UHGV virus genome: UHGV-0377591
From: a virus
Length of the DNA: 44,209 nucleotides
Strand: one strand, 5' to 3'
The notes beneath the pieces are model-generated. The model was not told the DNA's origin. It saw only the letters and a list, made by a program, of their open reading frames with translations, and ran no database searches. The position numbers were made by a program, and so were the translations under genes. The first letter of the stretch is position 1, and each line of letters begins with the position of its first letter. Positions 2,955 to 31,271 of the stretch are shown piece after piece.

Positions 2955-2980
2955 ATCACTGGCCGGGCAGTTCCCGGAGT

Positions 2981-3015
2981 AAACTTAAAATCTAAACTTA
3001 AAATCTAAACTTAAT
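2981..3015 (+). repeat. 13-bp tandem direct repeat AAACTTAAAATCT, about 2.7 copies
   Basis: Two exact units at 2981-2993 and 2994-3006 plus a partial third; sits between the promoter and the SSB-like gene. Confidence 0.8.
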
Positions 3016-3027
3016 GAGGGCTGAACT

Positions 3028-3654: not shown

Positions 3655-3673
3655 TATCTGAATCAATTTAACT

Positions 3674-3697
3674 AAGGCCCTTCATTGGGCCTTTTTA
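3674..3697 (+). terminator. Hairpin terminator or attenuator ahead of the DNA polymerase gene
   Basis: AGGCCC-TTCATT-GGGCCT followed by TTTTT. Confidence 0.6.
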
Positions 3698-3715
3698 CTA
3701 AGGGTCGAAAATAAT

Positions 3716-5890: not shown

Positions 5891-6011
5891 ATTAATTATC
5901 GCAGTACTGGCGGGATTCGCCGCAGGTGTCTACTGTCACGAGGGTCAATACGGATTGATGGTCGCTGTATTGGGTATGTTTATTGCAATTTATCTGTGGG
6001 TGTTGGAATGA
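5880..6011 (+). CDS. Small membrane protein, 43 aa (not in the ORF track)
   Basis: Manual translation MLSKLIIAVLAGFAAGVYCHEGQYGLMVAVLGMFIAIYLWVLE; two hydrophobic segments; overlaps the polymerase stop. Confidence 0.35.
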   Translation: MLSKLIIAVLAGFAAGVYCHEGQYGLMVAVLGMFIAIYLWVLE

Positions 6012-6106
6012 AAATTTACTGGTTATACGAGGAAGACTGTCGAATCTGTCCGCGCTGCGGGATTGAGCATACGAAACGTGAGGGGTGCGTAGATGAGTAC
6101 GCCTGA
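6008..6106 (+). CDS. Small four-cysteine zinc-ribbon-like protein, 32 aa (not in the ORF track)
   Basis: Manual translation MKIYWLYEEDCRICPRCGIEHTKREGCVDEYA; overlaps both neighbours. Confidence 0.3.
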   Translation: MKIYWLYEEDCRICPRCGIEHTKREGCVDEYA

Positions 6107-6380
6107 GGGGCGCGTGCAGAAATACGCAAAAGACCGATTCGAGGCCATCGGTGGCCTCGTACGCAAATTGTCGTACGAAAATAGAGTGGGTGCCCCTGAC
6201 CTGCTGGTAATTCTCCCCGGCGGCATTGTCTGGTTTATCGAGGTTAAGAAAGACGAAAACACGAAGCCAGACCCGCACCAGCTACGTGAACACGAGCGGA
6301 TGCGTAAACGCGGCGCGAATGTTTTTGTCGTTGGTTCGATAAAACAGGTTGACGACCTAATAGCGAACTATTATAGTTAG
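6093..6380 (+). CDS. VRR-NUC family PD-(D/E)xK nuclease, 95 aa
   Basis: Motifs GAPDLLVI and FIEVKKDEN; C-terminus IANYYS is encoded by the promoter/operator element. Confidence 0.75.
   Translation: MSTPEGRVQKYAKDRFEAIGGLVRKLSYENRVGAPDLLVILPGGIVWFIEVKKDENTKPDPHQLREHERMRKRGANVFVVGSIKQVDDLIANYYS
6349..6377 (+). promoter_or_regulatory. Early sigma70-like promoter (class I) embedded in the 3' end of the VRR-NUC gene
   Basis: TTGACG (6349-6354), 17-bp spacer, TATAGT (6372-6377); AATAG-CGAA-CTATT at 6359-6372. Confidence 0.55.
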
Positions 6381-6410
6381 TCACACACCAACAATATAAG
6401 GAATTGAGAA

Positions 6411-6605
6411 ATGAAACACGAATATGACCGCAAACCAGCACGTGACATCGTACCTGGCGATATGATTTTCAACGTTAAGACCCGTCGTCCTGTTGCCGTT
6501 GATACGGTGTTCGTCGAGTCGAACGGTAAACTGGTTATCGAAGACGTAACGGGTAATGTTACGGCGTTTGGGCGGAAGGAATTGGTACTCTACGTTAAGG
6601 GTTGA
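6411..6605 (+). CDS. Hypothetical protein, 64 aa
   Basis: ORF track; ribosome-binding site AAGGAATTGAGAA upstream. Confidence 0.6.
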   Translation: MKHEYDRKPARDIVPGDMIFNVKTRRPVAVDTVFVESNGKLVIEDVTGNVTAFGRKELVLYVKG

Positions 6606-6607
6606 TT

Positions 6608-8032
6608 ATGTCTAAATTTATCCGTCGAGAGTACCAGAAGCTCATGACTTCGTTCATGCTGCAACACCCGCGCTGTAATATTTGGGCCTCGATGGGCGCG
6701 GGCAAAAGTTCCGCAACGATGTGGGTTCTAAACCGCCTGTTCCGCAACGGGCAGCTTACGGAAGAGGACCGCGTGTTAATCCTCGCCCCGTTACGTGTTG
6801 CATCCGGTACGTGGCCCGCAGAACAAACTAAGTGGGGTTTCCCTTGTCTGAGTGTCGTCGATGCGACCGGTAGCGAGAGGCGTCGCATCGCGGCGCTGGA
6901 GTCGGACGCTAACGTGGTATGCACCAACTACGAAGTTATCGAGTGGCTGATTGACTACTACGGCAAAGACGACTGGCCTTTTACGGTTATCGTTGCCGAT
7001 GAGAGCACGAAACTGAAATCATTCCGCAGTCGTTCAGGCGGCAGCAAGCGGGCAAAGGCGCTTAGCAAGGTTGCGTTCGGTAAGGTCAAGCGTTTTATAA
7101 ACCTGACGGGAACGCCATCACCTAACGGCCTCAAAGACTTGTGGGGCCAGAACTGGTTTATCGACGCGGGCGAGCGCCTCGGCTCATCGTACACGGCATT
7201 CACCGACCGCTGGTTCAACTCGGTACAGAAAGGCAAATCGGCTATGGCGCGCGAATACCACGCTCGCCCTGGTGCGGATAATGAAATTCACCAGAATATG
7301 AAAGACATCAGCCTGACGATTGACGCCGCCGAGTGGTTTGGTTGTGAAGCACCTATTATCGTGCCGATGGAAATTGACCTGCCGAAGAAAGCGCGTCAGG
7401 CGTACATAGATATGGAGGAGAAGCTATTCGCAGAACTGGAAAGTGGGGAAGTTGAAGCGGCTAACGCCGCGGCGAAGACGTCGAAGTGCTTGCAGATTGC
7501 ATCTGGTGCCGTATATGTGTCAGGGCCGGACGGAGAAGCAACGAAAGACTGGGAGAAAGTGCACGACACGAAACTGGATGCGCTTGAGTCAATTGTTGAG
7601 GAGTTACAAGGTGCGCCGTTGCTGGTGGCCTATCAGTTCAAGCACGAACTGGAGCGCATCCTTAAGAGATTCCCACAAGCCCAGGCGTTCGCCAAAGGCG
7701 CGAATGGCAATAAGCAGATGGAAGCGTGGAACCGTGGTGAAATCGAAATCCTATGCGTGCACCCTGCGTCAGCCGGGCATGGTCTCAATTTACAGGACGG
7801 TGGCCATCATCTGGCGTTTATTTCGCAAGGGTGGAACCTTGAGCACTATTTGCAGGTTGTTGAGCGTATAGGTCCAGTCCGACAAAAACAGGCGGGCCAC
7901 GAACGACCGGTATTTCTCTACCACATCGTTGCTAAAGACACGCTGGATGAGGTTGTTGCCGCGCGTACAGACGAGAAGAAATCGGTCCAGGAAGAGTTGC
8001 TTAATTACATGAAGAGACGAGGTAAGAAATGA
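6608..8032 (+). CDS. SF2 (SNF2/DEAD-like) DNA helicase
   Basis: Start moved to ATG 6608 (AAGGG upstream). Walker A SMGAGKSS; motif II VIVADESTKLKS. Confidence 0.8.
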   Translation: MSKFIRREYQKLMTSFMLQHPRCNIWASMGAGKSSATMWVLNRLFRNGQLTEEDRVLILAPLRVASGTWPAEQTKWGFPCLSVVDATGSERRRIAALESDANVVCTNYEVIEWLIDYYGKDDWPFTVIVADESTKLKSFRSRSGGSKRAKALSKVAFGKVKRFINLTGTPSPNGLKDLWGQNWFIDAGERLGSSYTAFTDRWFNSVQKGKSAMAREYHARPGADNEIHQNMKDISLTIDAAEWFGCEAPIIVPMEIDLPKKARQAYIDMEEKLFAELESGEVEAANAAAKTSKCLQIASGAVYVSGPDGEATKDWEKVHDTKLDALESIVEELQGAPLLVAYQFKHELERILKRFPQAQAFAKGANGNKQMEAWNRGEIEILCVHPASAGHGLNLQDGGHHLAFISQGWNLEHYLQVVERIGPVRQKQAGHERPVFLYHIVAKDTLDEVVAARTDEKKSVQEELLNYMKRRGKK

Positions 8033-15594: not shown

Positions 15595-17931
15595 TTAATA
15601 CCCCGGCTGGTTTCGTGTAGCCCGGCGGGACTTGGAGATTGCACTGTTGCTGTCTTGTAACGCCGCCGATACTGTTTCGCTGATGATAACACGTAACCGC
15701 CCTTCGTCGTCACGCTCTGTAACGGCGGAATCAACTCGTCCGGTGGTGTTGTTGACGATTGTCACGCTGTCACCGCCTGACTTGTTGCCGTTCTCGCCCA
15801 TAATCTGGCGCATCTGTTCCGCGGTACGTACGCGTGACGCCCCCGCAGGCATAATAACTTCCGGCTTGTTACGTTCTGCAATGGTGGATAGCTGCCCGGC
15901 AGCTAAGTTACCACCCTGCTCACGGGCCGAACGAATCTTGCTGATGTTAGCGAGACCTGCCGCTACCGCTGTAGCTGCTGCTATCGGCCCAAGTATCCAA
16001 CCAACAAAAGGAATCGCGGACGCAGATTTATAAGCCTCGATGGCGGATGTGTATGTGGCGATGGTGGCCTGGGCGATAGCAAACGCTTTATAAGCGGTAG
16101 ACGCTTCGCCAAGCGACGATTTAATATTATCCGCCATCATGCCGAAAGCGTTACCTGTAGCGTTGGCGCGTTTTAACGCGTACTGGTCGTTTATAGCATT
16201 AACCGCAGCCTGGTACTGTTCCTCGTTAATAAGATTCTGTTCACGGTATCGGTCCGCAACGTCCAGTTTTTGTTGTTCCTGAATTTCCAGAAGCTCAAGC
16301 TCGGTGGCATTCTGACCCATAATCTGAGCCATGAAGTCTTCGCCTTTCTGGTTCTTCTCCTGTCGTTCTTTCTCCCGCTTGGCGAGTTCTTCCTGGCGAG
16401 CGGTGTCCGCCTCCAACATAATCTGAGTTTTAGCGTTCTCGTATTGCTGGTCGCTAAGAAGCTGATTGCCGTAAAACTCCTGTAGCTTGGTTAGCTGCTG
16501 TTCCTGGTTGGCTTCTATTTTCTGGAATACGTCATCATTGAGATGAATCGACTGGTAGTAGAAATCCTCAGCGGCTTTCTTCTGGCGCTCGAACGCATCC
16601 GCAGCTTTCTTGGCGGCTTTTGCACTAGCGTTATCATCTTCTGACCCGCCACCGGCACCAGTTACCTTAAACTTACTAAGCCCTTCTTCCTTAGCGGCTT
16701 CTTTGTCGATGTCATATGCCGCGCGTTTAAGCGCGACGATATTTTGCTGAGCCTCCACCTGTTCGCGGAAACTTTTACGGGTCAGGTCCGCAACATCGCG
16801 CTGAGTATCCAGTGCCATCCCTAACTGGAAGTTAATGTTTTTTGCTACGTCTACAGATTCCCCTGGTGTGAAGGCAGCTTTCACCAACCGGCCAGCGTCC
16901 TGTGCCCCTTTAACCATATCTTCAAAGAATCGCTCCATCGCGGTAAATTCTTCCGCTATGAAATCGAGCGCATCGGCAGCTGATTCCGCGATGGTTGTCG
17001 CCGTTTGTTCGCCACTGTCGGTGATACTTTTACTGCTAAAATCCCAAAGTTCATTCAGCCCGTTTATTGCGTCGCCTACGAAACCAAATGCCGCGTCGAA
17101 CGACATCTCTATCGCGCTGCCCACTTCTGACGCGATGTCACCCCACATACGCATCTCAGCGGTGAGTTCGCCGGATGCTACCTGTGCGTTAAGTTCCTGG
17201 ATTAAATCATCGATGTACCGGATAGGTTCCGCAAGAGCACCAACATCAAGGCTGGTGGCCAGTGTCATTTTTAACTGCGACCATGAGTCGCTGGCACTGG
17301 CGATGGCCCCGTTAAGTGTGTTGGCCTGGTCCGCCATAGCCCCCGCGAAGTTTACGTTACCAATGTTGAGCAGGTATTGCTCGATGTCGGCAGCGCTCTT
17401 CTTAACTACCGTAGTGGTGCCCTGGAATGTAAATTCAACATCGTTTTTGTTCTGCTTGGCCTTGATACCAAATTCTTTAAGGCGCTCAAATTCAAATGTA
17501 CTAGCGTCCGCAACGGCCTCAATCATCTGATTAAGGTCTTTACCCATAGCAGCGGCAGTGTTGCCATAGGAGCGCAACGCTTCTTCTGAGGGGGTAAGGC
17601 CGAGAGCCACCAGTTTACGGAATCCCTCTACCGCCTGTTCAAGGCCATACGGAGTGTCGCGCGCGAAGTCTTGCAGGATGCTTAACGCCTGTCTTGCCCC
17701 CTGCGTGCTTCCGGTTAGCGTTTTCAGGCTGGCGGACATCTTGTCCAGTTGCCGTTGGGAGTCTACCAGTTCCTGTGCGGCCTTGTACGCTGTCGCGGCG
17801 ATAATTGAAGCGAGTCCAGCTACGGCTGCCCCCGCTACTTTTGCCGACTTGGAGAGATTATCAAGACGGTCCGATGTAGCTTTCGCGCCTTGCTCTGATA
17901 CCTTTACAACTAAACTAGCTACATCAGCCAT
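15595..17931 (-). CDS. Tail tape measure protein, 778 aa
   Basis: Long, Ala/Gln/Glu-rich, helical, low-complexity protein after the chaperone genes; Gly-rich hydrophobic segment near the C-terminus. Confidence 0.85.
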   Translation of the reverse strand: MADVASLVVKVSEQGAKATSDRLDNLSKSAKVAGAAVAGLASIIAATAYKAAQELVDSQRQLDKMSASLKTLTGSTQGARQALSILQDFARDTPYGLEQAVEGFRKLVALGLTPSEEALRSYGNTAAAMGKDLNQMIEAVADASTFEFERLKEFGIKAKQNKNDVEFTFQGTTTVVKKSAADIEQYLLNIGNVNFAGAMADQANTLNGAIASASDSWSQLKMTLATSLDVGALAEPIRYIDDLIQELNAQVASGELTAEMRMWGDIASEVGSAIEMSFDAAFGFVGDAINGLNELWDFSSKSITDSGEQTATTIAESAADALDFIAEEFTAMERFFEDMVKGAQDAGRLVKAAFTPGESVDVAKNINFQLGMALDTQRDVADLTRKSFREQVEAQQNIVALKRAAYDIDKEAAKEEGLSKFKVTGAGGGSEDDNASAKAAKKAADAFERQKKAAEDFYYQSIHLNDDVFQKIEANQEQQLTKLQEFYGNQLLSDQQYENAKTQIMLEADTARQEELAKREKERQEKNQKGEDFMAQIMGQNATELELLEIQEQQKLDVADRYREQNLINEEQYQAAVNAINDQYALKRANATGNAFGMMADNIKSSLGEASTAYKAFAIAQATIATYTSAIEAYKSASAIPFVGWILGPIAAATAVAAGLANISKIRSAREQGGNLAAGQLSTIAERNKPEVIMPAGASRVRTAEQMRQIMGENGNKSGGDSVTIVNNTTGRVDSAVTERDDEGRLRVIISETVSAALQDSNSAISKSRRATRNQPGY

Positions 17932-18283
17932 CGTTTCTACCCTCGAAAATAGCGTCTAAGCTCATGATGATGTCAGATTCGAACATGCCTATATTCTGGC
18001 CTGAAACGGTGCTGTATGCCACTAAATCCGACCATCTTAACTGTTCGCGCGGGTACATCTTGATGCCATCATCGTCCACTCGGCGGGTGAATTTGATTTC
18101 CCTGTACTTCTCGAAGGTGGTTAATAGCTCAGGGGGGCATTCCGGCCCTGTGTCCTGCGTTGCTTCCGGCGCGTCTTGCATAACCCCCATAGCAATTAGC
18201 GCGGCTTTATGCCCGTCGGCGATACTGTCAAACTCCCGCCGTTTGTGGCGGGTTATGAAGTTCCAACGGGCAAACTGGAGCAA
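17924..18283 (-). CDS. Tail assembly chaperone T-frame segment, expected as a G-T fusion by -1 frameshift
   Basis: The -1 frame is open from 18316 across the stop of the G-like ORF; candidate shifty sequence CAG-GAA-AAG-TAG (complement of 18289-18300). Confidence 0.5.
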   Translation of the reverse strand: MLQFARWNFITRHKRREFDSIADGHKAALIAMGVMQDAPEATQDTGPECPPELLTTFEKYREIKFTRRVDDDGIKMYPREQLRWSDLVAYSTVSGQNIGMFESDIIMSLDAIFEGRNDG

Positions 18284-18288
18284 CGCGT

Positions 18289-18705
18289 CTACTTTTCCTG
18301 CAATTGGTGAAGCTGTTCATTGTGGAAAACAACAACGTGTTCAGCGAGTCGTTTATATTGTGAGAAAAGAGTATTCAGGTTCTCTTTATTAAATTCATCG
18401 TCGAGACTCCAACCGTTAACCAGTTCAAGCGCTAACTGGCGGTTAAGGTCCGTTGCGGCGTCTTCCATCTTGATGTTGTATTCCGAGAAATCTTTCAGTT
18501 CCTCGCATTTATCGCGAAGCGGTTTCAATTTACCTAATGCCGCGCGGTACGCAAGTGTAAACGCCCTCATAGCTTTAACAGCAACGTCTGCCTCCGGTGA
18601 AACAACGTTCAGCCACTCCCCTGAATCGGTGCCGTCTTTCAGTGGTATCGGCATACGGGCGCCTTTTTCTGCCTCAGCTTCGTAATAAAAATCAGAAAGT
18701 TTCAT
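18289..18705 (-). CDS. Tail assembly chaperone (G-like)
   Basis: ORF track; immediately upstream of the tape measure gene; ribosome-binding site AAAGGA. Confidence 0.65.
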   Translation of the reverse strand: MKLSDFYYEAEAEKGARMPIPLKDGTDSGEWLNVVSPEADVAVKAMRAFTLAYRAALGKLKPLRDKCEELKDFSEYNIKMEDAATDLNRQLALELVNGWSLDDEFNKENLNTLFSQYKRLAEHVVVFHNEQLHQLQEK

Positions 18706-18813
18706 TCTTTAATCCTTTGGTTAAGAGGTTACAGGTTAATGGTAAATGCGCCAGACGGGAACCACCCGCTTTTCGTGTGCGACACTAGGCGCAAAATTAT
18801 TCTATCACATTAC

Positions 18814-18842
18814 TTGCGCACCCCAACATAATAGGATACTAT
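18814..18842 (+). promoter_or_regulatory. Class II promoter with operator palindrome overlapping the -10
   Basis: TTGCGC (18814-18819), 17-bp spacer, TACTAT (18837-18842); AATAG-GATA-CTATT at 18830-18843. Confidence 0.5.
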
Positions 18843-18883
18843 TCACTTACACCAACAATGTTAACTCAAACAGGATCTACACC

Positions 18884-19075
18884 ATGACAGGTATTACTAT
18901 GTTCTTCTTAATCATTATCGTTTTAGTTTATTTTATCCCATTTCTCGTGGCGCATATGCGCAACCATAAAGCTAAATTAGCGATATTCATGGCTAATCTG
19001 TTTCTCGGTTGGGTTCTGCTGCCGTGGGTATTTATTTTAATCTGGGCGTGCAACTCGAATGTCAAAGAGAAGTGA
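18884..19075 (+). CDS. Small two-transmembrane protein, 63 aa (candidate superinfection-immunity or holin-like)
   Basis: MTGITMFFLIIIVLVYFIPFLVAHMRNHKAKLAIFMANLFLGWVLLPWVFILIWACN; AGGA ribosome-binding site; first gene of the rightward insert. Confidence 0.55.
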   Translation: MTGITMFFLIIIVLVYFIPFLVAHMRNHKAKLAIFMANLFLGWVLLPWVFILIWACNSNVKEK

Positions 19076-19114
19076 GCTAGTATAGGACAAATCCTAAACA
19101 CGAGGAAGTAAAGC

Positions 19115-20245
19115 ATGGCTCATAAGAAAATAACCGACGAACAGTTACGGGAAGAATTGAACGCCGGAACAAAAATTATTGATATCGCACGTAAGTATGG
19201 AATCTCAGACCGCGTTATCCGTATCCGTAAAGCGAAGCTGGCTAAGAAAGGTGTAGGCCACGGTCGCGACGTTAGTCACCTTGTGCCTGACGGCTACAAG
19301 ATTAAAGGTACGTCGTCTCTGGTGGACGAGTTCGGCAACACTAAACTGCAATGGGTTAAGACCGACACTGACGCAGAACGTCAGGTCGAGTTGATGAAAG
19401 CTGTAATCGAGGGCATGAAGTCAGAGATTACGCCGATTGCGCCTGTTAAAGCCGTTCGCGCCAAACGTGACGATAAACTACTTAATCTTTACACTGTATC
19501 TGATTTCCATCTCGGTATGCTGGCCTGGGCCGACGAGAGCGGCGACGACTGGGACATGAAGATTGCAGAAGACCTGTTCTCCCGATGGTTCGATGCGGCG
19601 TTTCAGAAAGCACCAGATGCAGGAACTGGGGTTATTAACCTGCTGGGTGACTTCGCGCACTTCGATAGTCTGGATGCGGTTACGCCAGCGAGTGGTCATG
19701 TTCTTGATGCGGACACTCGTTATCAGAAACTGGTCCGCTACATGATTCGTATGGTACGCCGTGTTGTCGGTATGGCGCTGGTTAAGCATAAAAATGTTCG
19801 CTTGCTTATCGTGCAAGGGAATCACGACGAAAGTGGCATGATTTGGTTAGCTGAGATGTTTAGTACGCTGTACGACAATGAGCCGCGTGTGTTCGTAGAT
19901 ACGTCGCCGGATGTTTACAAGATGGTTCAACACGGCAAAACGACGCTGTTCTTTACACACGGCCATAAATGCAGGTTTGAGGTGGTCGAACCGATTATGA
20001 TTGCCAAGTTCCGCAAAGCGTTCGGCGAGAGCGTTTACAGCTACGCCCACGTAGGCCACCTGCACCATCAGAAGATTGTAGAAAGCCGTAACATGATTGT
20101 TGAGCAACACCGCACCTTAGCGGCTAAAGACGCCTACGCCTCGCGCGGCGGATGGATGTCGGGCCGTAGTGCAAATGTAATTACTTATAGCGCCGAATAT
20201 GGCGAGGTCGCACGTTTAACTATTTCACCGGAGATGCTGGGATGA
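19115..20245 (+). CDS. Calcineurin-like (Mre11/SbcD-type) metallophosphoesterase with N-terminal HTH-like domain, 376 aa
   Basis: Motifs VSDFHLG, LLGDFAHFD, VQGNHDE, FTHGHK, HVGHLHH; N-terminal TKIIDIARKYGISDRVIRIRK. Confidence 0.75.
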   Translation: MAHKKITDEQLREELNAGTKIIDIARKYGISDRVIRIRKAKLAKKGVGHGRDVSHLVPDGYKIKGTSSLVDEFGNTKLQWVKTDTDAERQVELMKAVIEGMKSEITPIAPVKAVRAKRDDKLLNLYTVSDFHLGMLAWADESGDDWDMKIAEDLFSRWFDAAFQKAPDAGTGVINLLGDFAHFDSLDAVTPASGHVLDADTRYQKLVRYMIRMVRRVVGMALVKHKNVRLLIVQGNHDESGMIWLAEMFSTLYDNEPRVFVDTSPDVYKMVQHGKTTLFFTHGHKCRFEVVEPIMIAKFRKAFGESVYSYAHVGHLHHQKIVESRNMIVEQHRTLAAKDAYASRGGWMSGRSANVITYSAEYGEVARLTISPEMLG

Positions 20246-20730
20246 AAGATATTGTGATTTTCGATTTAGACGGGACATTGGCGGACGGTACTCATCGTTT
20301 ACACCTGCTACCGAAAGATAACTACAACGAAACATGGGCGTGGAAGCCATTTAACATGGCGTGCAAAGATGATTCGCCGATATATGACAACATCCACTTG
20401 TGCAACACGCTGTGACATACCGGGATGACCATAATCATCCTTACCGGGCGAAGCGACGACGCCGAGGAAGAAACTCGTGAGTGGTTACGTAAAAACAATG
20501 TCAAGTTCGACGTTCTGTTAATGCGCAGCAAGCACGACAACAGAAAAGACATCGTAATTAAAGAAGAGGTGTTACGTGCTATCGGGCTGGAGAGAATATT
20601 GTGTGCGTTCGACGACTCTCCAGCGGTAATAAAGCATTTCCGCGGACTCGGTATAACCACTCACGCGGTTACTGAATACGACTGTAACGGGAACTCTACA
20701 CACTTAAAATCACACGGGAGCGATAAATAA
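20242..20730 (+). pseudogene. HAD-superfamily phosphatase (polynucleotide 3'-phosphatase-like) interrupted by an in-frame TGA at 20413-20415
   Basis: Motif I VIFDLDGTLA lies before the stop; motifs ILTGRSDD, HDNRKD and AFDDS lie after it in the same frame. By recollection resembles the phosphatase domain of T4 polynucleotide kinase. Confidence 0.6.
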
Positions 20731-21284
20731 TGGCTAAGGTAATTATTCTTAATGGCCCTGCGGGCTGCGGGAAAGACACACTTGCTATGGCGCTGGTAGA
20801 AATGGGCTTTGCGAAAGGAACTACCAGTTTCAAGAATCCAATGTTCAATATCGCTCTGGCGGCGTTAGGCCCGGATGCTTACCACGAGTTTCTCGACGGC
20901 TACGACGACCGGGCGCGGAAAGAAAAGCCAGAAGGCTTCCTTAATGGCTTGTCGCGGCGTCAGTTCATGATTGCTATATCTGAGCAATTCATTAAACCGG
21001 TACTTGGTAGTGATTATTTCGGTAAGTATCTTGCTGGAAACTTGCCAGACGGCGACGAAGTTTTTGTAGTGTCCGATGGCGGGTTCGCCAGCGAAGTAGC
21101 CCCTATCGTCGCCGCGGGTCATGATGTAAGAATCGTCCGCTTGCACCGAGAAGGCTATACGTTTGAGGGGGACAGCCGTGGTTATCTGTATGGCGTTGAT
21201 GGTGTAAAAGATTGCGACACCTACATCATACCGGGGGACATTAAATCGAACGTTATAGACATTGCTTTAAAATTAGGTTTGTAA
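20730..21284 (+). CDS. P-loop kinase (dNMP kinase-like or polynucleotide 5'-kinase-like), 184 aa
   Basis: Walker A ILNGPAGCGKDT; ATGA-type overlap with the HAD gene stop. Confidence 0.65.
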   Translation: MAKVIILNGPAGCGKDTLAMALVEMGFAKGTTSFKNPMFNIALAALGPDAYHEFLDGYDDRARKEKPEGFLNGLSRRQFMIAISEQFIKPVLGSDYFGKYLAGNLPDGDEVFVVSDGGFASEVAPIVAAGHDVRIVRLHREGYTFEGDSRGYLYGVDGVKDCDTYIIPGDIKSNVIDIALKLGL

Positions 21285-21285
21285 G

Positions 21286-21312
21286 AAAAAGGCCCCTTTC
21301 GGGGCCTTAGTT
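21286..21312. terminator. Bidirectional rho-independent terminator
   Basis: AAAAA-GGCCCC-TTTC-GGGGCC-TTAGTTTTA between the convergent kinase and major tail protein genes. Confidence 0.8.
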
Positions 21313-22479
21313 TTATGCGTAACTAATACGTTGAATTACGATAGACGACTGGTATTGGTTGCCTGTGGACTGCCCTTCTATACTTTGGGTAATTGATTCC
21401 GGGCCGGATATTTCTGGTGTAACCGCCGTAAGCTCTGCACGTTTCAAACTGAAAGACATAGCCCCGTTTACCCCCGCCAGAATAGAGTTAATCTCTACCT
21501 GCTGTTCGTTGATAAACTTCTGAATCATAGCCATGTCATACAGCTTGCCGGAGATGGAGAAGGTGTTAGCCGCGCGGCTACGTTCCACAAACGCTACGTT
21601 AGTGTTACCAAGTTCGAACTGCGCGGATGCACTGTTGTCGTTGGTGATGGTCAGGCTGTCACACCGCAACGGAGTAGAACCGTCGAACACAGAGACGTCA
21701 ACGGAGGAGAACGGCTCGTCACCAAACGTAACAGAAGAGAAATCAGAGCCGGACGGCGGCGTAGCGAGAATCTCCTGGCTGCGCCCGATGAACGGGAAGC
21801 TGCCCGTTACCATCGCGTTAACGGCCTGCTCCACGGTAAAACCGGAAACTTCCACACCTTTGGTCAGTGTGTACGCGTCGGCCCCACCGCACTGGCCTTT
21901 GTACCAGGTGAGGATAGAGAACGTCTTACACGCGTTACCAGTTTCCAGTTTATCGCCGGTTTTAGCGTCGGTTGTTACGGTCTCGGTGGTCAGAGTATGT
22001 TGGATCCCAGCACCGGTGACAACAGTCGCACTTACCTCGGTTACGATAAACGGTTTAGCGTTATCGCCCGTTAAGCCAGTAAACGCAATCAGGTCGCCTA
22101 CTTCAACGCCATCCGTAATGAAGCTACCGTCGGCACGAGTGAACGTCTTGCCCACCGGTGCGACGGTAATCGACAGCCCCGACAGAGAAACACCGGATTG
22201 CCACGTAGAGCCTAAAGCCCCCGCCAGCCAGTCGTCCTGGCTTTTCGAGCTAAGCTCGATGGCGTATTCTCCGCTAACCTGTTTGTTACCGGTGCGGATG
22301 GACGTAGTTTCACGGCTGCCGTCCAGTTCATTGGAGGTCAGCGTGTCGCGGGTAATAGCGGGAACGCCACCTGTGTTGCGCAACGGCGACCAGACCGGGT
22401 TGGTCGGTGTTACGCCCGGGGTCACTTCCGCCACATAGAATTGCGCGGTATTCGCGCCCTTAAAAGGAGTTGTAGCCAT
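21313..22479 (-). CDS. Major tail (tube) protein
   Basis: Start moved to ATG 22479 (AGAGG upstream); large protein followed by a strong terminator; position before the chaperones. Confidence 0.7.
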   Translation of the reverse strand: MATTPFKGANTAQFYVAEVTPGVTPTNPVWSPLRNTGGVPAITRDTLTSNELDGSRETTSIRTGNKQVSGEYAIELSSKSQDDWLAGALGSTWQSGVSLSGLSITVAPVGKTFTRADGSFITDGVEVGDLIAFTGLTGDNAKPFIVTEVSATVVTGAGIQHTLTTETVTTDAKTGDKLETGNACKTFSILTWYKGQCGGADAYTLTKGVEVSGFTVEQAVNAMVTGSFPFIGRSQEILATPPSGSDFSSVTFGDEPFSSVDVSVFDGSTPLRCDSLTITNDNSASAQFELGNTNVAFVERSRAANTFSISGKLYDMAMIQKFINEQQVEINSILAGVNGAMSFSLKRAELTAVTPEISGPESITQSIEGQSTGNQYQSSIVIQRISYA

Positions 22480-22481
22480 AT

Positions 22482-22898
22482 TCACAGCCTCTTGGTGAAT
22501 GCAATAAAGTTAATTGACAATGGTTTTTTGGCCCATCCGTTTTCTACAATCAGCGGCCCCAGGCTAACCGATTGAACCTCGGCGCAGATGTCGTTACGCG
22601 AAAATGACTTACCTGCTTTAAACGCCGTGTTAAGTAAGTCTGCCATTTTATTGATTGGCGCGCTACCTTTCACCGATGCGTAGTTAATATCTACCTGATA
22701 GACGCCCGCACGTTGTTCCGTGAAGAACAAATCAGCCTGTTCCGTATCCGCCAGCAACATGTAACTTGCCAGATACGGCGTATCGGTTGACGTCGGCGCA
22801 TCGATGTTTTCAAGCGCAACCTTGATGCCGTTGGCGGTTCCGAAGGCTACCAGCGGTACATCAAACGCTTTTGTTAAGTCCTCAAAGTAGCCCATCAT
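22482..22898 (-). CDS. Tail terminator / tail completion protein (by position)
   Basis: ORF track; ATGA coupling on both sides. Confidence 0.45.
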   Translation of the reverse strand: MMGYFEDLTKAFDVPLVAFGTANGIKVALENIDAPTSTDTPYLASYMLLADTEQADLFFTEQRAGVYQVDINYASVKGSAPINKMADLLNTAFKAGKSFSRNDICAEVQSVSLGPLIVENGWAKKPLSINFIAFTKRL

Positions 22899-23290
22899 TT
22901 CACCTTGTTGGCTTCTTCGTTAATGAGTTGCTGGAAGCGTGACACATTAGTCCTGACCATGCCTTGCGGCGCTTGTTGCGACCAGCCATACTCCAGCCGT
23001 TGTGCATACGGCAGGTTATTTGTCAGCGTGAACTCGCGCCAGTCGGCAGCTTTCAGTACGAAACTTGTAGCATTTCCGATTGCTATGTTTCCTGATTTAT
23101 CCGTAGCATCTGTAATCCCGGAGGTAGGAGTACCTCCAGATGCCATCCAGTTCATACGGAATCGACCAGTATCCACCGGGCTCGCCTTTATGATAGCGGA
23201 AAACAGCTTGATAGACACCTGACGCATCACCTTCTCAGGGTTCTTCTTCGCCTTTTCCACGAACTTAGAGACATCAAGCGCGAAACTCAT
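22895..23290 (-). CDS. Neck / head-tail adaptor protein (HK97 gp10-like by size and position)
   Basis: ORF track; translationally coupled. Confidence 0.45.
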   Translation of the reverse strand: MSFALDVSKFVEKAKKNPEKVMRQVSIKLFSAIIKASPVDTGRFRMNWMASGGTPTSGITDATDKSGNIAIGNATSFVLKAADWREFTLTNNLPYAQRLEYGWSQQAPQGMVRTNVSRFQQLINEEANKVK

Positions 23291-23646
23291 TTTCTCACCT
23301 GAATAAAGTATGCCACGACATCATCATTAACCATCTTCTTCTCTATGGCTACAACAGACCATTGCGCGTCGCCGAATTGCACCTTGTCTTCCATCTTAGG
23401 AGCGACACTGCAATCGGCTTTAACAATCATGTCGCCCGCCTGAATTGTAGTACCGTTCACCAGTCCTGCGTTAACAGGAACCGGAACGGCCTTCAACGGC
23501 AACACTTCATCGTCAGACCAGACGTACTCGCCGAGAACTTCATCCCACACTTTCGAGCCAGCACGAACCAGAGATACCGTGCTACCGAATTTGGTTAGCA
23601 GGCGTGTACCCACGCCTTGCATACGTTTACTGAAAGCAGTACCCAT
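23287..23646 (-). CDS. Neck protein, hypothetical
   Basis: Start moved to internal ATG 23646, which overlaps the upstream stop as TAATG. Confidence 0.45.
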   Translation of the reverse strand: MGTAFSKRMQGVGTRLLTKFGSTVSLVRAGSKVWDEVLGEYVWSDDEVLPLKAVPVPVNAGLVNGTTIQAGDMIVKADCSVAPKMEDKVQFGDAQWSVVAIEKKMVNDDVVAYFIQVRK

Positions 23647-24260
23647 TACGCGGCCTCCAGTCTCGAAATAACCAGTAGCGCGGATGGTGCGGTCCCCCAT
23701 GCAGTTACGGTAGCCGCTTGTAGGTATACTCCGCCGAAGTCACTCCCGGCGCTATCCCGCATAATCTGAACGGCAAACGTCTGGCCTGCGGTTGGGTTAA
23801 TAACGACGCGGGACTCAATCGGGATTGTGGTGTCGGCACTTACCAGTTTCGTAGCTGCCGGTGAGCCGTACTGAGCACCGTTTACCAGAATGCGTGATAA
23901 CAAAATAGACGTGCCGCTTGCTCCAGTGCGCCCGGCCTGTAACTTGATGCGAACGGCGTAGTTACCTGCGGTGTTGAACGTAACCAGCCCGGCCGCATTA
24001 ATCATTACCGGGTCGGATGCACTATCCTGAGCAGAGCCGAACGATAACTGCAATGCCGTATCTACAGCGGAAGGAGCTTGTGTCACGGTTGACGCGGCAC
24101 GGAGAACTTCAACCTCTTTAACACCAGGAGTGGCGTAAATAGGCGAGTCCGCCATCTGTGTTAGCACCCCGCGTAACTTCGCTGGCGTGATAAGCCCGGT
24201 TGTGTTGTCGGGTAGCTCGGATCCGATTAGCGTAAATATCTCTGTCTTAGTCTTCGCCAT
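23646..24260 (-). CDS. Structural protein, hypothetical, 204 aa
   Basis: ORF track; lies in the head-tail joining region. Confidence 0.5.
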   Translation of the reverse strand: MAKTKTEIFTLIGSELPDNTTGLITPAKLRGVLTQMADSPIYATPGVKEVEVLRAASTVTQAPSAVDTALQLSFGSAQDSASDPVMINAAGLVTFNTAGNYAVRIKLQAGRTGASGTSILLSRILVNGAQYGSPAATKLVSADTTIPIESRVVINPTAGQTFAVQIMRDSAGSDFGGVYLQAATVTAWGTAPSALLVISRLEAA

Positions 24261-29497: not shown

Positions 29498-29500
29498 AAA

Positions 29501-30124
29501 CTAAACCTCTTTCATTGAGTTAATCTTACGTAAGACGCCTTCGAAAAGGCGTGGGTCTATGCTATCGCAAAGACCTTTGTATTCATATGCTAATTCAATT
29601 TTTCTATGAAACCATGCTACGTGTGCCTCTTGAGCGGTTTCGTAAGCGCCTATTTGTTCAGATACGCCATCCACGGATACTTGAGCGATGAATCTTTTCT
29701 TTTGTTTATGGAAATGTACGCCGAGTGGGTGTTCGCCTCGAAGAGCGTCGTGGGCTGTTAGGAAAGTATTGAGGGATTTAGGGATAAAAACACAGTTAGA
29801 AGCATCGTAAACCTTATTTCCCGGGTTAAGTAAATCCTTATCTATCTGCCACCCAGGTACATAAAAATCATCAAACCAGACCTTGAAATTACTGAACACC
29901 AACCAATCGTCCGACACGCGGCAACCTATATAAGTTCTGTTTCTTTGCTGCCATTTCTTGTCGTAGCACCTCTTTAACATGTTCTTCCATACGGCGTAGG
30001 ACGCTATATGCACCCCTCCGCAACTTATTGGTGAAACATCGTTAATACCCACACCAAAAACAATTCCCATATTAAACCCTATAAGAAAACCCCATGAAGA
30101 TTGGTCGATGCCAGAGATAGGCAT
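29501..30124 (-). CDS. Putative homing endonuclease-like protein with AP2-like DNA-binding domain
   Basis: C-terminal AP2-like GVHFHKQKKRFIAQVSVDGVSEQIGAYETAQEAHVAW; N-terminal catalytic domain not assigned; true start probably internal. Confidence 0.45.
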   Translation of the reverse strand: MPISGIDQSSWGFLIGFNMGIVFGVGINDVSPISCGGVHIASYAVWKNMLKRCYDKKWQQRNRTYIGCRVSDDWLVFSNFKVWFDDFYVPGWQIDKDLLNPGNKVYDASNCVFIPKSLNTFLTAHDALRGEHPLGVHFHKQKKRFIAQVSVDGVSEQIGAYETAQEAHVAWFHRKIELAYEYKGLCDSIDPRLFEGVLRKINSMKEV

Positions 30125-30194
30125 ACCTTCATGGGGTTATATTCTTTCTCTATTTTTAGTAGTTCACCGACCAAAGCTAGCTACTAGATATACT

Positions 30195-31271
30195 TTATAC
30201 CGACCTAAGATATTCAGCAACCCTGTTATCTAACGCCGCCATCTCCTTCAAGGTTAAAGGTCTACCAAAAGCGTCGACGGATATTACCCGGAATTCCTCT
30301 GGGGATATCCCACTATTCCTGAATATAGCACCGCGGGTAGGTCCGAGTGCTTCATCCACGAACCATGCCGGTTGCTGTTTCAGGAACTCGTAATAGGTGG
30401 TGTCTGCGCTTACCTGCATACCGCCGTCCGCACCCTTAGCCGCGCGTTTTGCACCTTTATCTAGGAAGTCGAACTCCGAACTGATTACCGGTGCAGTGGT
30501 ACTTCGACATCCAAAATGGGCGGGGGGCATCGGACCTTTACCGATTTCCCACGTCATCCCGTCTCTGGCCCTGCAAATCGTACTGGTACGGCTGTCCAGC
30601 GTTGACACCCATTCGTATTTCTCGATGATGTCGTCGTTCTGGCGGTATGTCTCGTTGCGGGCTTCGTTGGATACGTGAGACAGCGCGGTGCGGATTACCG
30701 TAGCCGCGTTGCGTTCAGAGATGTCCGCCAGCCCACCAGCGCCTACGACATTTTTAACAATCTGCCGTGTGGTTTGGCCCTGAACAAACCCCATCTTAAC
30801 GCCAGTTACGAGGCGCGCGGCCTCCGTTTCACCCCAGCCTGCCATCAGCTTAGTGAAATCGACGGGCTTGTCGCTTAACGACAGCGGCTGAAACTCGGCA
30901 GCAGCCCACACCTGTTCGGCGGTAGGCGTAACAAATTCCGCGTCAACGTTGGCGGTCAGTGTTTTTACGTTCCACTCAGCCTCATATGCGGCCAGTTCCT
31001 TAAGGTCTTCTGTCAGCTTTGTTTGCCAGTCACCTGTAAGCCCCGTCAGTGCTTCTTCAAGGTCGCGTAACAGTTTATTCAGTCGCGCAGTGCTTCGCCC
31101 GTCGTCACCGAATAACAGCACCTGCCGTTTGATTTCGTCCCGCATCTCCTGAATGAACGGTGCGAGGTCTTTCACTTCACCGGACGCGGTGCGTTGCAGC
31201 CATATCTGGTGGCTGATTAGGGATGTAAGTAAGCTCATAGATAAACCCTGTGGCGCTAAAGTTAATAGCAT
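30195..31271 (-). CDS. Head morphogenesis protein (SPP1 gp7 / Mu F-like, by position and size)
   Basis: ORF track; immediately downstream of the portal gene. Confidence 0.65.
   Translation of the reverse strand: MLLTLAPQGLSMSLLTSLISHQIWLQRTASGEVKDLAPFIQEMRDEIKRQVLLFGDDGRSTARLNKLLRDLEEALTGLTGDWQTKLTEDLKELAAYEAEWNVKTLTANVDAEFVTPTAEQVWAAAEFQPLSLSDKPVDFTKLMAGWGETEAARLVTGVKMGFVQGQTTRQIVKNVVGAGGLADISERNAATVIRTALSHVSNEARNETYRQNDDIIEKYEWVSTLDSRTSTICRARDGMTWEIGKGPMPPAHFGCRSTTAPVISSEFDFLDKGAKRAAKGADGGMQVSADTTYYEFLKQQPAWFVDEALGPTRGAIFRNSGISPEEFRVISVDAFGRPLTLKEMAALDNRVAEYLRSV

What the first reader, a model, noticed from the sequence alone, without database searches (positions are those of the whole stretch)
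18814..21312. Rightward insert inside the tail module: phosphoesterase, 3'-phosphatase and P-loop kinase as a candidate end-healing cassette
A promoter-to-terminator unit on the opposite strand splits the major tail protein gene from the tail chaperone genes. It encodes a small two-transmembrane protein, a calcineurin-like metallophosphoesterase with Mre11/SbcD-type motifs and an HTH-like N-terminus, a HAD phosphatase that by recollection resembles the 3'-phosphatase domain of T4 polynucleotide kinase (VIFDLDGTLA, TGRSDD, HDNRKDIVIKEEVL, AFDDS), and a P-loop kinase (GPAGCGKDT). Kinase plus 3'-phosphatase plus phosphoesterase are the activities needed to heal broken nucleic-acid ends. In T4, Pnk with RNA ligase repairs tRNA cut by host anticodon nucleases, so this may be a counter-defence module; no ligase is present in the window. 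A nucleotide-pool function (dNMP kinase plus nucleotidase) is the main alternative.
Basis: partly seen in the sequence, partly recalled or inferred. Interest (0 to 1): 0.75.

Follow-up and report, generated by a model that had tools for sequence, protein, structure and literature searches.

The report
Phage nucleotide-supply operon, not end-healing
A four-gene operon sitting backwards inside the tail genes of a Kagunavirus phage is real, but its kinase belongs to a family already shown to phosphorylate free DNA nucleotides, so it is most likely an ordinary, already-annotated nucleotide-supply module and not a repair kit for broken nucleic-acid ends.

Summary
The window is a near-complete Kagunavirus (Guernseyvirinae) genome. 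The + strand unit at 18814-21312 is real. It has a conserved promoter-like site, four genes and a conserved hairpin terminator. The genes are a T4 Imm-type superinfection immunity protein, an HTH-metallophosphoesterase (MPE), a T4-Pnk-type HAD phosphatase and a P-loop kinase. The unit lies between the tail tube gene and the tail chaperone genes.

- The HAD gene carries an in-frame TGA (20413-20415, Trp58 to stop). None of 26 relatives has it.
- The MPE shows only generic superfamily motifs, not Mre11/SbcD-specific ones.

The end-healing idea fails at the kinase.
- It falls in PHROG 139 with T4 gp1 dNMP kinase, not with T4 Pnk.
- Its best structural match is T4 gp1 (1DEK).
- It is 51% identical to Rao1 gp58 (R1DNK). 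R1DNK has been shown to convert dNMPs to dNDPs and to trigger the Kongming defence.
- Rao1 carries the same MPE-HAD-kinase trio.

Two papers already describe this trio as nucleotide-supply genes. The roles of the MPE and the HAD remain untested. Verdict: new member of a known kind, low to moderate interest.

The parts
18814..18842 (+). Candidate sigma-70 promoter: TTGCGC, 17 nt, TACTAT. It lies in the divergent intergenic region 18706-18883.
   Evidence: Read from the sequence. The hexamers are conserved in VIPECOTH07, K1ind2 and Jerseyvirus dunkel. The generic scan is not above chance. Function is inferred.
18884..19075 (+). Superinfection immunity protein (63 aa, two hydrophobic segments), T4 Imm type.
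   Evidence: PF14373 at 51.8 bits against a cut-off of 27.9. phrog_1039, E 2.5e-23. Annotated this way in relatives.
19115..20245 (+). HTH-metallophosphoesterase (376 aa), phrog_704, substrate unknown. N-terminal three-helix HTH about residues 8-44; MPE core about residues 119-376.
   Evidence: phrog_704, E 7.7e-164. DxH/GD/GNHD/H/GHxH are invariant in alignments. AF2 model pLDDT 77. The fold search shows a generic MPE fold. There is no PDB sequence relative. The family has 4603 50%-identity clusters.
20242..20730 (+). T4-Pnk-type HAD phosphatase gene (162 codons), interrupted by an opal codon. The N-fragment ORF is 20242-20415 (57 aa, DxDxT motif). The C-fragment ORF is 20425-20730 (101 aa, motifs II-IV).
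   Evidence: With Trp58 restored: PF25109 HAD_PNKP 74.4 bits and phrog_415 E 7.5e-67. PDB hits are Pnkp1 4xrp at 2.7e-7 and the T4 Pnk phosphatase 5uj0 at 2e-4. It is 27% identical over 154 aa to T4 Pnk, E 1e-9.
20413..20415 (+). In-frame TGA (Trp58 to stop), followed by C.
   Evidence: EM1, BCH953P1 and L AB-2017 have TGG. Against EM1 there are 18 synonymous changes and this one nonsense change. None of 26 related genes has a stop. The same allele is on 3 public contigs; the one read is 100% identical to the window.
20730..21284 (+). dNMP kinase (184 aa), gp1/DNK family, Walker A GPAGCGK15D.
   Evidence: phrog_139, E 3.7e-43; T4 gp1 hits only phrog_139. AF2 pLDDT 94.5. The top PDB fold match is 1DEK, TMq 0.69. 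It is 51% identical to Rao1 R1DNK, E 1e-61. R1DNK's activity on dNMPs is published.
21289..21308 (.). Bidirectional intrinsic terminator hairpin between the convergent kinase and tail tube genes.
   Evidence: 8-bp stem with 6 GC pairs and T-runs on both strands. Folds at -19 kcal/mol, z -3.9. The stem is invariant and the loop varies in relatives.
17924..18705 (-). Flank: tail assembly chaperone pair (18289-18705, and 17924-18283 as the frameshift extension).
   Evidence: PF08748 and PF23812. The K1ind2 record annotates a joined frameshift product.
21313..22485 (-). Flank: tail tube (major tail) protein.
   Evidence: PF18906 Phage_tube_2, E 1.6e-38.

Best explanation
This is a conserved accessory operon of Kagunavirus phages, transcribed against the surrounding tail genes. 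It combines a superinfection-immunity membrane protein with a three-gene nucleotide-metabolism trio.

Shown, by homology to a characterised enzyme: the last gene encodes a gp1/DNK-type deoxynucleoside monophosphate kinase. It converts dNMPs to dNDPs. The host NDP kinase then makes dNTPs for phage DNA synthesis.

Inferred: the two upstream enzymes work on the same pool.
- The HTH-metallophosphoesterase would act as a DNA-binding nuclease or phosphodiesterase that releases or trims nucleotides from host nucleic acid.
- The Pnk-type HAD phosphatase would remove 3'-phosphates from 3'-dNMPs or from 3'-phosphorylated fragments, or would dephosphorylate particular mononucleotides.

In this phage the phosphatase gene carries a very recent opal mutation. 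It is therefore either inactive or made only at a low level by readthrough. That fits a dispensable, fitness-tuning role.
For: Kinase:
- It shares PHROG 139 with T4 gp1, while T4 Pnk goes to phrog_505.
- Its best PDB fold match is T4 dNMP kinase 1DEK (TMq 0.69), followed by phosphomevalonate kinase. T4 Pnk is not in the top 50.
- It is 51% identical over its full length to R1DNK.
- R1DNK phosphorylates dAMP, dGMP, dCMP and dTMP. Its K15A mutant is dead. Deleting it lowers dATP in infected cells (sequence).

Trio:
- Rao1 carries orthologues of all three genes in the same order: gp56 45%, gp57 54%, gp58 51% identity.
- The trio is syntenic in Drexlerviridae-like and SP6-like phages.
- In a Vequintavirus the same kinase sits next to a different HAD, an NT5C-type 5'-nucleotidase, together with thymidylate synthase and ribonucleotide reductase.

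HAD:
- T5 Dmp, a proven 5'-dNMP phosphatase, falls in the same PHROG 415 as this HAD.
- A calcineurin-type MPE plus a HAD acting in sequence on dNTPs is documented in the PUA-Cal-HAD defence system.

Literature and dispensability:
- Two papers already assign the trio to nucleotide metabolism or supply.
- Jerseyvirus relatives keep Imm and the MPE but replace the HAD and kinase with an HNH gene and an Ant gene.
- Rao1 lacking dnk shows no fitness cost.
- The window carries the nonsense allele.
Against: - No substrate is known for the MPE or for this HAD subfamily.
- By pairwise sequence the HAD is nearer the T4 Pnk 3'-phosphatase (27% over 154 aa, E 1e-9) than T5 Dmp, which matches only at motif I. 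A polynucleotide 3'-end substrate is therefore not excluded.
- A 3'-phosphatase does not obviously feed a 5'-dNMP kinase.
- In SP6-like phages the trio lies directly before an ATP-dependent DNA ligase.
- The MPE often occurs alone. The three genes need not form one pathway.
Confidence: 0.58

Rival explanations
1. End-healing cassette. The MPE opens 2',3'-cyclic phosphates or trims damaged ends. The HAD removes 3'-phosphates. The kinase phosphorylates 5'-OH ends. A host ligase, or in other phages a phage ligase, can then reseal DNA or tRNA cut by defence nucleases.
For: - The HAD is a genuine relative of the T4 Pnk and Pnkp1 phosphatase domains.
- The trio moves as a unit between unrelated phage backbones.
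- In Era103, Aer_P220 and three metagenomic loci it is immediately followed by an ATP-dependent DNA ligase.
- A second, non-orthologous MPE (phrog_221) occupies the same position before the HAD and kinase in Autographiviridae.
- In Campylobacter phage F368 the MPE is adjacent to a ligase.
Against: - The kinase is a gp1/DNK-type enzyme whose acceptor is a phosphate, not a hydroxyl. An orthologue at 51% identity is a proven dNMP kinase.
- There is no ligase in this genome.
- The phosphatase gene is broken here.
- In Era103 the trio sits in a slot between endonuclease VII and ligase genes that are already near each other on the SP6 backbone, judged from the record's gp21 and gp24 notes. From my recollection, T7 also has its unrelated nucleotide kinase (gene 1.7) near its ligase (gene 1.3).
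Confidence: 0.12
2. Counter-defence by nucleotide-pool editing. The HAD, the MPE or both offset the liability of carrying a dNMP kinase, or attack nucleotide-based immunity. They would remove precursors or messengers, as Dmp depletes dAMP against Kongming, or degrade cyclic or modified nucleotide signals.
For: - R1DNK-type kinases trigger Kongming. T5 Dmp, in the same PHROG 415 as this HAD, blocks it by depleting dAMP. Dmp homologues co-occur with DNKs.
- The best PDB fold hit of the MPE is the cyclic-nucleotide phosphodiesterase Rv0805, though only marginally.
- The MPE orthologue of Pantoea phage AAS23 was detected in virions. That would suit an early-acting protein.
Against: - Rao1 carries the orthologous HAD (gp57) next to R1DNK and is still sensitive to Kongming, while T5 Dmp supplied in trans rescues it.
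- The HAD matches T5 Dmp pairwise only at motif I.
- None of the four proteins hits PADLOC.
- The MPE fold hits do not discriminate between subfamilies.
Confidence: 0.15
3. No common pathway. The four genes are independent accessory genes that share a permissive slot in the tail module and are co-inherited.
For: - The slot is plastic. Jerseyvirus dunkel has Imm-MPE-HNH-small ORF-Ant there.
- The MPE stands alone in Stevie, RcMcLean, Vibrio phages and Bas85.
- The kinase stands alone in many metagenomic phages.
- Imm has no link to nucleotide chemistry.
Against: - The MPE-HAD-kinase order, with overlapping stop and start codons, is kept across three unrelated phage backbones at 41-55% identity.
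- HAD-kinase adjacency recurs with a different HAD family.
Confidence: 0.12

Closest known systems
R1DNK (gp58) of Escherichia phage Rao1 and the phage DNK family that triggers the Kongming (KomABC) defence (bioRxiv 10.1101/2024.12.20.629578)
   Same: It is 51% identical over the full length, with the same length (184 aa), the same Walker A lysine (K15) and the same RxGYTFEGDSR lid motif. Rao1 has the same upstream neighbours: gp56 MPE at 45% and gp57 HAD at 54% identity.
   Different: The genomic position differs. In Rao1 the trio follows the replication genes and precedes the lysis genes on the same strand. Here it is an opposite-strand insert in the tail module, headed by an Imm gene, and the HAD gene is interrupted.
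T4 gp1 deoxynucleoside monophosphate kinase (PDB 1DEK)
   Same: Same PHROG 139. It is the best structural match of the AF2 model, TMq 0.69. Both have a GKD Walker A.
   Different: Identity is only 18%. Profile-to-sequence alignment finds just the P-loop region. gp1 is 57 residues longer. From general knowledge, gp1's substrate range (hmdCMP, dTMP, dGMP) differs from that reported for R1DNK.
T4 polynucleotide kinase/phosphatase (Pnk, PDB 1LTQ) and bacterial Pnkp1 (PDB 4XRP)
   Same: The HAD phosphatase is homologous to their phosphatase domains, with DxDxT, (S/T)GR, RKD..KEE and DD motifs.
   Different: - The phosphatase is a stand-alone protein, not fused to a kinase.
- The neighbouring kinase is not Pnk-type (phrog_139, not phrog_505).
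- There is no ligase partner in the genome.
- The gene is broken here.
T5 Dmp deoxynucleoside-5'-monophosphatase
   Same: Same PHROG 415. It occurs in a phage that also encodes a dNMP kinase. It shows that this HAD clade includes a mononucleotidase.
   Different: Pairwise similarity is limited to motif I. Dmp is 244 aa and is encoded on the first-step-transfer DNA, away from the T5 dnk gene.
MPE-HAD-dNMP kinase trio of Drexlerviridae (Pantoea phage AAS23 gp38-40, PMC8004638; KanT1 survey, PMC13164509)
   Same: The same three families in the same order, interpreted there as nucleotide metabolism or nucleotide supply.
   Different: It sits in a different phage family and module. In AAS23 the phosphoesterase was also found in the virion proteome.
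Mre11/SbcD nucleases
   Same: Shared metallophosphoesterase fold and metal-binding motifs. M. jannaschii Mre11 and E. coli SbcD are among the fold hits.
   Different: They score no better than Rv0805, purple acid phosphatase or GpdQ. There is no significant sequence hit; T. maritima SbcD gives E 1.1. No Rad50/SbcC partner is adjacent. The N-terminal HTH is not an Mre11 feature.

Membership tests
Phage dNMP kinase (T4 gp1 / R1DNK, PHROG 139) | Sequence membership in the family that contains the characterised enzymes | tested here: met
   phrog_139, E 3.7e-43. T4 gp1 hits only phrog_139, E 1.8e-65. 51% identity to R1DNK, E 1e-61.
Phage dNMP kinase (T4 gp1 / R1DNK, PHROG 139) | NMP-kinase fold closest to gp1; Walker A lysine (K15 in R1DNK) and lid arginines conserved | tested here: met
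   AF2 pLDDT 94.5. 1DEK is the top hit, TMq 0.69. G14, K15, D16, R137, R140 and R150 are invariant or nearly invariant.
Phage dNMP kinase (T4 gp1 / R1DNK, PHROG 139) | ATP-dependent phosphorylation of dNMPs to dNDPs | not testable with these tools
   Shown for the orthologue R1DNK in the literature, not for this protein.
T4 Pnk / PNKP end-healing enzymes | HAD DxDxT 3'-phosphatase domain of the PNKP type | tested here: met
   PF25109 at 74.4 bits against a cut-off of 27.6. PDB hits 4xrp, 5uj0 and 1ltq. BLASTP E 1e-9 to T4 Pnk residues 162-300. The ORF nevertheless carries an in-frame stop.
T4 Pnk / PNKP end-healing enzymes | Pnk-type P-loop 5'-hydroxyl polynucleotide kinase domain | tested here: not met
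   T4 Pnk maps to phrog_505, 2071 and 8238, while the window kinase maps only to phrog_139 and 31701. T4 Pnk is absent from the top 50 fold hits. hhalign aligns only 25 P-loop columns.
T4 Pnk / PNKP end-healing enzymes | Kinase and phosphatase fused in one polypeptide, with a cognate ligase encoded by the same genome | tested here: not met
   The genes are separate. No ligase is annotated in the 91%-identical relative, and tblastn with two phage ligases finds none. No ligase-sized unexplained ORF exists.
Bacterial Pnkp (kinase-metallophosphoesterase-ligase) / Hen1 RNA repair | Kinase, MPE and adenylyltransferase domains in one protein with a Hen1 partner | tested here: not met
   The MPE is a separate HTH-fused protein. 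No adenylyltransferase or Hen1 gene is present. C. thermocellum Pnkp is not among the top 50 fold hits.
Mre11/SbcD nuclease | MPE catalytic motifs | tested here: met
   D130, H132, G178-D179, G235-N236-H237-D238, H282, G314-H315 and H317 are invariant. These motifs define the whole superfamily, not Mre11.
Mre11/SbcD nuclease | Specific similarity to Mre11/SbcD, with a capping domain and a Rad50/SbcC partner | tested here: not met
   Fold hits to Mre11/SbcD (E 5e-8 to 4e-6) are no better than those to Rv0805, PAP or GpdQ. The PDB profile search gives E 1.1. No SbcC-like gene is adjacent.
T5 Dmp 5'-deoxyribonucleotidase | Close sequence relationship to Dmp | tested here: inconclusive
   Same PHROG 415, but pairwise BLASTP aligns only motif I, E 0.002.
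T4 Imm superinfection immunity protein (PF14373) | Pfam domain above the gathering threshold; small protein with two hydrophobic segments | tested here: met
   51.8 bits against 27.9. phrog_1039. Two hydrophobic stretches are visible in the 63-aa sequence.

The most novel reading that the evidence does not exclude
The mobile MPE-HAD-DNK trio is a counter-defence unit, not plain metabolism. The Pnk-type phosphatase and the HTH-metallophosphoesterase would neutralise nucleotide-based immunity that the kinase itself provokes or that starves the phage, such as Kongming dITP signalling or dNTP-depleting systems like PUA-Cal-HAD. Alternatively they would clean 3'-blocked DNA ends made by defence nucleases, so that host or phage ligase can reseal them. 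The opal allele in this phage would then be a natural loss-of-function variant.
Probability: 0.12. Interest if true: 0.7.

Novelty: new member of a known kind. Interest (0 to 1): 0.28.

Why it matters
If the favoured reading holds, the locus is one more copy of a widespread nucleotide-supply trio and is ordinary.

Three things are still of some value:
- The kinase makes this phage a predicted trigger of the Kongming defence. That is relevant to host range and to phage-therapy choices among Kagunaviruses.
- The HTH-metallophosphoesterase belongs to a very large family (over 4600 50%-identity clusters) with no characterised member. It travels with a Pnk-type phosphatase and a dNMP kinase, so one biochemical study would annotate thousands of phage genes.
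- The natural opal allele of the phosphatase, sitting on a background of purely synonymous divergence, shows that the gene is under selection yet can be lost.

Tried and rejected
- Sequence searches of the PDB with the kinase, alone or as a 52-sequence profile, found only P-loop matches.
- hhalign of that profile against single T4 gp1 and T4 Pnk sequences aligned only the P-loop in both cases, so it could not discriminate. PHROG co-membership, the fold search and the R1DNK comparison settled the question instead.
- PDB sequence searches with the MPE, alone or as a profile, gave only weak HTH hits and SbcD at E 1.1.
- Foldseek against the PDB and against the viral library gave only generic MPE folds or uncharacterised phage proteins.
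- I tested whether the MPE is a relative of T5 A1, the host-DNA degradation protein with an N-terminal DNA-binding domain. hhalign gave probability 17% over the GNHD motif only, and A1 falls in a different PHROG. Rejected.
- NCBIfam and PADLOC gave nothing useful.
- I considered that the HAD might be a Dmp-like anti-Kongming enzyme. Rao1 carries the orthologue and remains Kongming-sensitive, so I kept this only as a minor rival.
- I considered the adjacency to a DNA ligase in Autographiviridae as support for healing and sealing. Its weight is lowered because the trio sits in a pre-existing slot between endonuclease VII and ligase on the SP6 backbone.
- I considered that the TGA might be a sequencing artefact. 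The same allele is on 3 public contigs, but the one examined is 100% identical to the window, so these are not independent.


Full report
**What the window is**

Megablast of 18700-21400 finds 275 phage records. The best are Kagunavirus (Guernseyvirinae) phages of Escherichia at about 91% identity over the whole stretch. The window aligns with most of the 44.2-kb genome of Escherichia phage vB_VIPECOTH07. It is therefore a near-complete Kagunavirus genome.

**The observation**

On the + strand there are four ORFs:
- 18884-19075 (63 aa)
- 19115-20245 (376 aa)
- 20242-20730 (162 codons)
- 20730-21284 (184 aa)

The - strand flanks are the tape measure gene (15595-17931), the tail assembly chaperone pair (17924-18283, PF23812; 18289-18705, PF08748) and the tail tube gene (21313-22485, PF18906). 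So the unit does split the tube gene from the chaperone genes.

The last three genes overlap (ATGA at 20242-20245, TAATG at 20728-20732), which indicates translational coupling.

A hairpin at 21289-21308 fills the 28-nt gap between the convergent kinase and tube genes. It folds at -19 kcal/mol (z = -3.9 against shuffles). Its GGCCCC/GGGGCC stem is invariant while the loop varies in Kagunavirus and Jerseyvirus relatives.

These hexamers are conserved, and a Jerseyvirus has TTGCAT-17-TATTAT. The generic promoter scan is not above chance, so promoter function remains inferred.

GC content is unremarkable. GC skew flips with the coding strand.

**Two corrections to the observation**

*1. The HAD frame is broken.* The translation reads ...HLCNTL*HTGMTIIILTGRSDD... 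with TGA at 20413-20415.
- The three closest relatives (EM1, BCH953P1, L AB-2017) have TGG (Trp) there.
- Against EM1 the gene differs at 19 codons: 18 synonymous and this one nonsense change. The lineage was under purifying selection and the stop is very recent.
- None of 26 related HAD genes has an in-frame stop.
- The 57-aa truncated product is on record from three public contigs. The one shown is 100% identical to the window over 6.2 kb, so this is not independent confirmation.
- The stop is followed by C. From my recollection of Poole et al. 1995, UGA-C is the weakest termination context in E. coli, and misreading by tRNA-Trp would restore the ancestral residue. An ATG lies 9 nt downstream (20425). 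Low-level full-length protein or reinitiation is therefore possible, but untested.

*2. The 'Mre11/SbcD-type motifs' are generic.* They are the metallophosphoesterase motifs DxH, GD, GNHD, H and GHxH, invariant in two alignments.
- The AF2 model has pLDDT 77.
- It matches Rv0805, purple acid phosphatase, Mre11, GpdQ, PolD DP1, SbcD and LpxH at similar E-values.
- A 51-sequence profile finds no PDB relative. The best MPE hit is T. maritima SbcD at E 1.1.
- The N-terminal HTH is supported by three predicted helices, by weak GerE/Lrp hits and by precomputed HTH Pfam hits in homologues.
- The family is very large: 4603 50%-identity clusters at E no greater than 0.001. It has no characterised member in the viral structure library.

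**The first gene**

It is a T4 Imm-type superinfection immunity protein (PF14373 at 51.8 bits, phrog_1039). It is unrelated to nucleic-acid chemistry.

**The phosphatase**

These results use the sequence with Trp58 restored.
- PF25109 (HAD_PNKP) at 74.4 bits and phrog_415 at E 7.5e-67.
- PDB hits to Pnkp1 (4xrp, 2.7e-7) and to the T4 Pnk phosphatase domain (5uj0, 2e-4; 1ltq, 2.4e-3).
- 27% identity over 154 residues to T4 Pnk residues 162-300 (E 1e-9), with the DxDxT, GR, RKD..KEE and DD motifs aligned.

However, T5 Dmp also falls in phrog_415 (E 3.6e-57). Dmp is an enzyme that dephosphorylates free 5'-dNMPs. Pairwise it matches this HAD only at motif I. From general knowledge, the T4 Pnk phosphatase itself also acts on 3'-dNMPs. 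Family membership alone therefore does not fix a polynucleotide substrate.

**The kinase**

This is where the end-healing reading fails.
- The protein matches phrog_139, 'deoxynucleoside monophosphate kinase', at E 3.7e-43.
- T4 gp1 matches only phrog_139 (E 1.8e-65). I checked the gp1 sequence I used as 100% identical to the T4 record.
- T4 Pnk goes to phrog_505, and its kinase half to other families.
- A confident AF2 model (pLDDT 94.5) has T4 dNMP kinase 1DEK as its best PDB match (TMq 0.69). Phosphomevalonate kinase comes next. T4 Pnk is not in the top 50.
- The protein is 51% identical over its full length (E 1e-61) to R1DNK, gp58 of Escherichia phage Rao1 (sequence from the paper's supplement).

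Zeng et al. (bioRxiv 10.1101/2024.12.20.629578) report the following for R1DNK:
- It phosphorylates dAMP, dGMP, dCMP and dTMP to the diphosphates.
- The K15A mutant is inactive. The window protein has the same K15.
- Deleting dnk lowers dATP in infected cells, without fitness cost in the laboratory.
- R1DNK and related kinases from KarlJaspers, vB_KpnS-VAC2 and T5 trigger the Kongming defence.

Rao1 carries orthologues of all three genes in the same order: gp56 MPE (45%), gp57 HAD (54%) and gp58.

**Is it a cassette?**

Among 80 viral contigs that encode a relative of the kinase:
- All 16 Kagunavirus loci have the trio.
- Seven more distant loci (41-55% identity, 45-51 kb genomes) keep MPE-HAD-kinase in that order.
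- Eleven more keep the HAD close upstream of the kinase.
- The rest have the kinase without either partner within 5 kb, at tblastn sensitivity.

Other contexts:
- In SP6-like Autographiviridae (Era103, Aer_P220 and metagenomic loci) the trio is followed directly by an ATP-dependent DNA ligase. In some of them a non-orthologous MPE (phrog_221) takes the first position.
- That is the best point in favour of healing and sealing. In Era103, however, the trio sits between endonuclease VII and ligase genes that are close on the SP6 backbone anyway, judged from the record's gp21 and gp24 notes.
- In a Vequintavirus the kinase lies next to an NT5C-type HAD 5'-nucleotidase, thymidylate synthase and ribonucleotide reductase. 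That is a nucleotide-metabolism context, and a second, independent HAD-kinase pairing.
- The MPE often stands alone: Stevie, RcMcLean, Vibrio phages and Bas85.
- In the sister genus Jerseyvirus the same slot holds Imm-MPE-HNH-small ORF-Ant, with no HAD or kinase. The slot is plastic, and HAD plus kinase are dispensable.

**Prior knowledge**

- GenBank relatives already annotate the four genes as superinfection immunity protein, DNA repair exonuclease, polynucleotide kinase and dNMP kinase.
- The Pantoea phage AAS23 paper assigns gp38-40 (phosphoesterase, 3'-phosphatase/5'-PNK, dNMP kinase) to nucleotide metabolism. It also detected the phosphoesterase in virions (PMC8004638).
- The KanT1 survey of Drexlerviridae notes that PNK and dNMP kinase genes most often follow the 'DNA repair exonuclease'. 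It proposes that they enhance nucleotide supply (PMC13164509).
- A calcineurin-type MPE and a HAD acting in sequence on dNTPs are documented in the PUA-Cal-HAD defence (bioRxiv 10.64898/2026.01.15.699771). An MPE-HAD pairing is therefore not diagnostic of end repair.

**Conclusion**

The structure described is real and is a conserved operon. Its best-supported function is nucleotide supply, with the kinase step established by homology to a characterised enzyme. The MPE and HAD steps are inferred. The end-healing or counter-defence reading is not excluded for the HAD and MPE, but three things count against it:
- It loses its kinase.
- It has no ligase in this genome.
- It concerns a phosphatase gene that is broken in this very phage.

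A Dmp-like anti-Kongming role for the HAD is weakened, because Rao1 carries the orthologue and is still Kongming-sensitive.

I rate this as a new member of a known kind, with low to moderate interest. What remains open is the substrate of a very large uncharacterised HTH-metallophosphoesterase family, and the reason a Pnk-type phosphatase travels with a dNMP kinase.

Noticed in passing
window 20413-20415: In-frame TGA (Trp58 to stop) in the HAD phosphatase gene, followed by C, with an ATG 9 nt downstream. Against phage EM1 there are 18 synonymous differences and this single nonsense change, and none of 26 relatives has a stop. It could be a recent loss of function, a leaky stop or an assembly-level variant.
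   Followed up: yes
L091 (Salmonella phage dunkel, Jerseyvirus) 2759-5626: The same slot between the tail chaperone and tail tube genes holds Imm, the MPE, an HNH endonuclease, a 76-aa ORF and a Rha/Ant anti-repressor, in place of the HAD and the kinase. The 76-aa ORF matches only the C-terminal part of larger PHROG profiles (phrog_2452; also phrog_17613, an 'ATPase' family), so it may be a gene remnant. The slot is a plastic accessory island.
   Followed up: partly
L096 (Aeromonas phage Aer_P220) 1511-4493; L097 (Era103) 4115-7317; L039, L042, L043, L046: In SP6-like Autographiviridae the MPE-HAD-kinase trio is followed directly by an ATP-dependent DNA ligase. In some of them a non-orthologous MPE (phrog_221) replaces the phrog_704 MPE in the same position.
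   Followed up: partly
L095 (Escherichia phage NHEP1, Vequintavirus) 3004-5390: The homologous dNMP kinase is immediately followed by an NT5C-type HAD 5'(3')-deoxyribonucleotidase, and lies near thymidylate synthase and ribonucleotide reductase. This is a second, independent kinase-plus-HAD pairing.
   Followed up: partly
window 17924-18705 (- strand) and window 22895-23700: The tail assembly chaperone is a two-ORF pair (138 aa and 119 aa). The K1ind2 record annotates it as a joined programmed-frameshift product. The same record also joins the two tail-completion ORFs.
   Followed up: no
Literature: Pantoea phage AAS23 gp38 (orthologue of window 19115-20245): LC-MS/MS detected the phosphoesterase in purified virions (PMC8004638). 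If real, the HTH-MPE could be a virion-associated or ejected protein.
   Followed up: no
window 20242-20730, columns 130-290 of alignment A1: The middle third of the HAD gene is mosaic. It is about 72% identical to most Kagunaviruses (K1G group) but 96-98% identical to EM1 and BCH953P1, while both ends of the gene are highly conserved in all. This suggests recombination within the gene.
   Followed up: partly
window 2424-2954 (+) and 29501-30124 (-): These are ORFs in segments with no nucleotide match to the close relative vB_VIPECOTH07 (uncovered segments 2456-2921 and 29498-30207). From their N-terminal sequences alone they looked to me like homing (HNH-type) endonucleases. No family search was run on them.
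   Followed up: no
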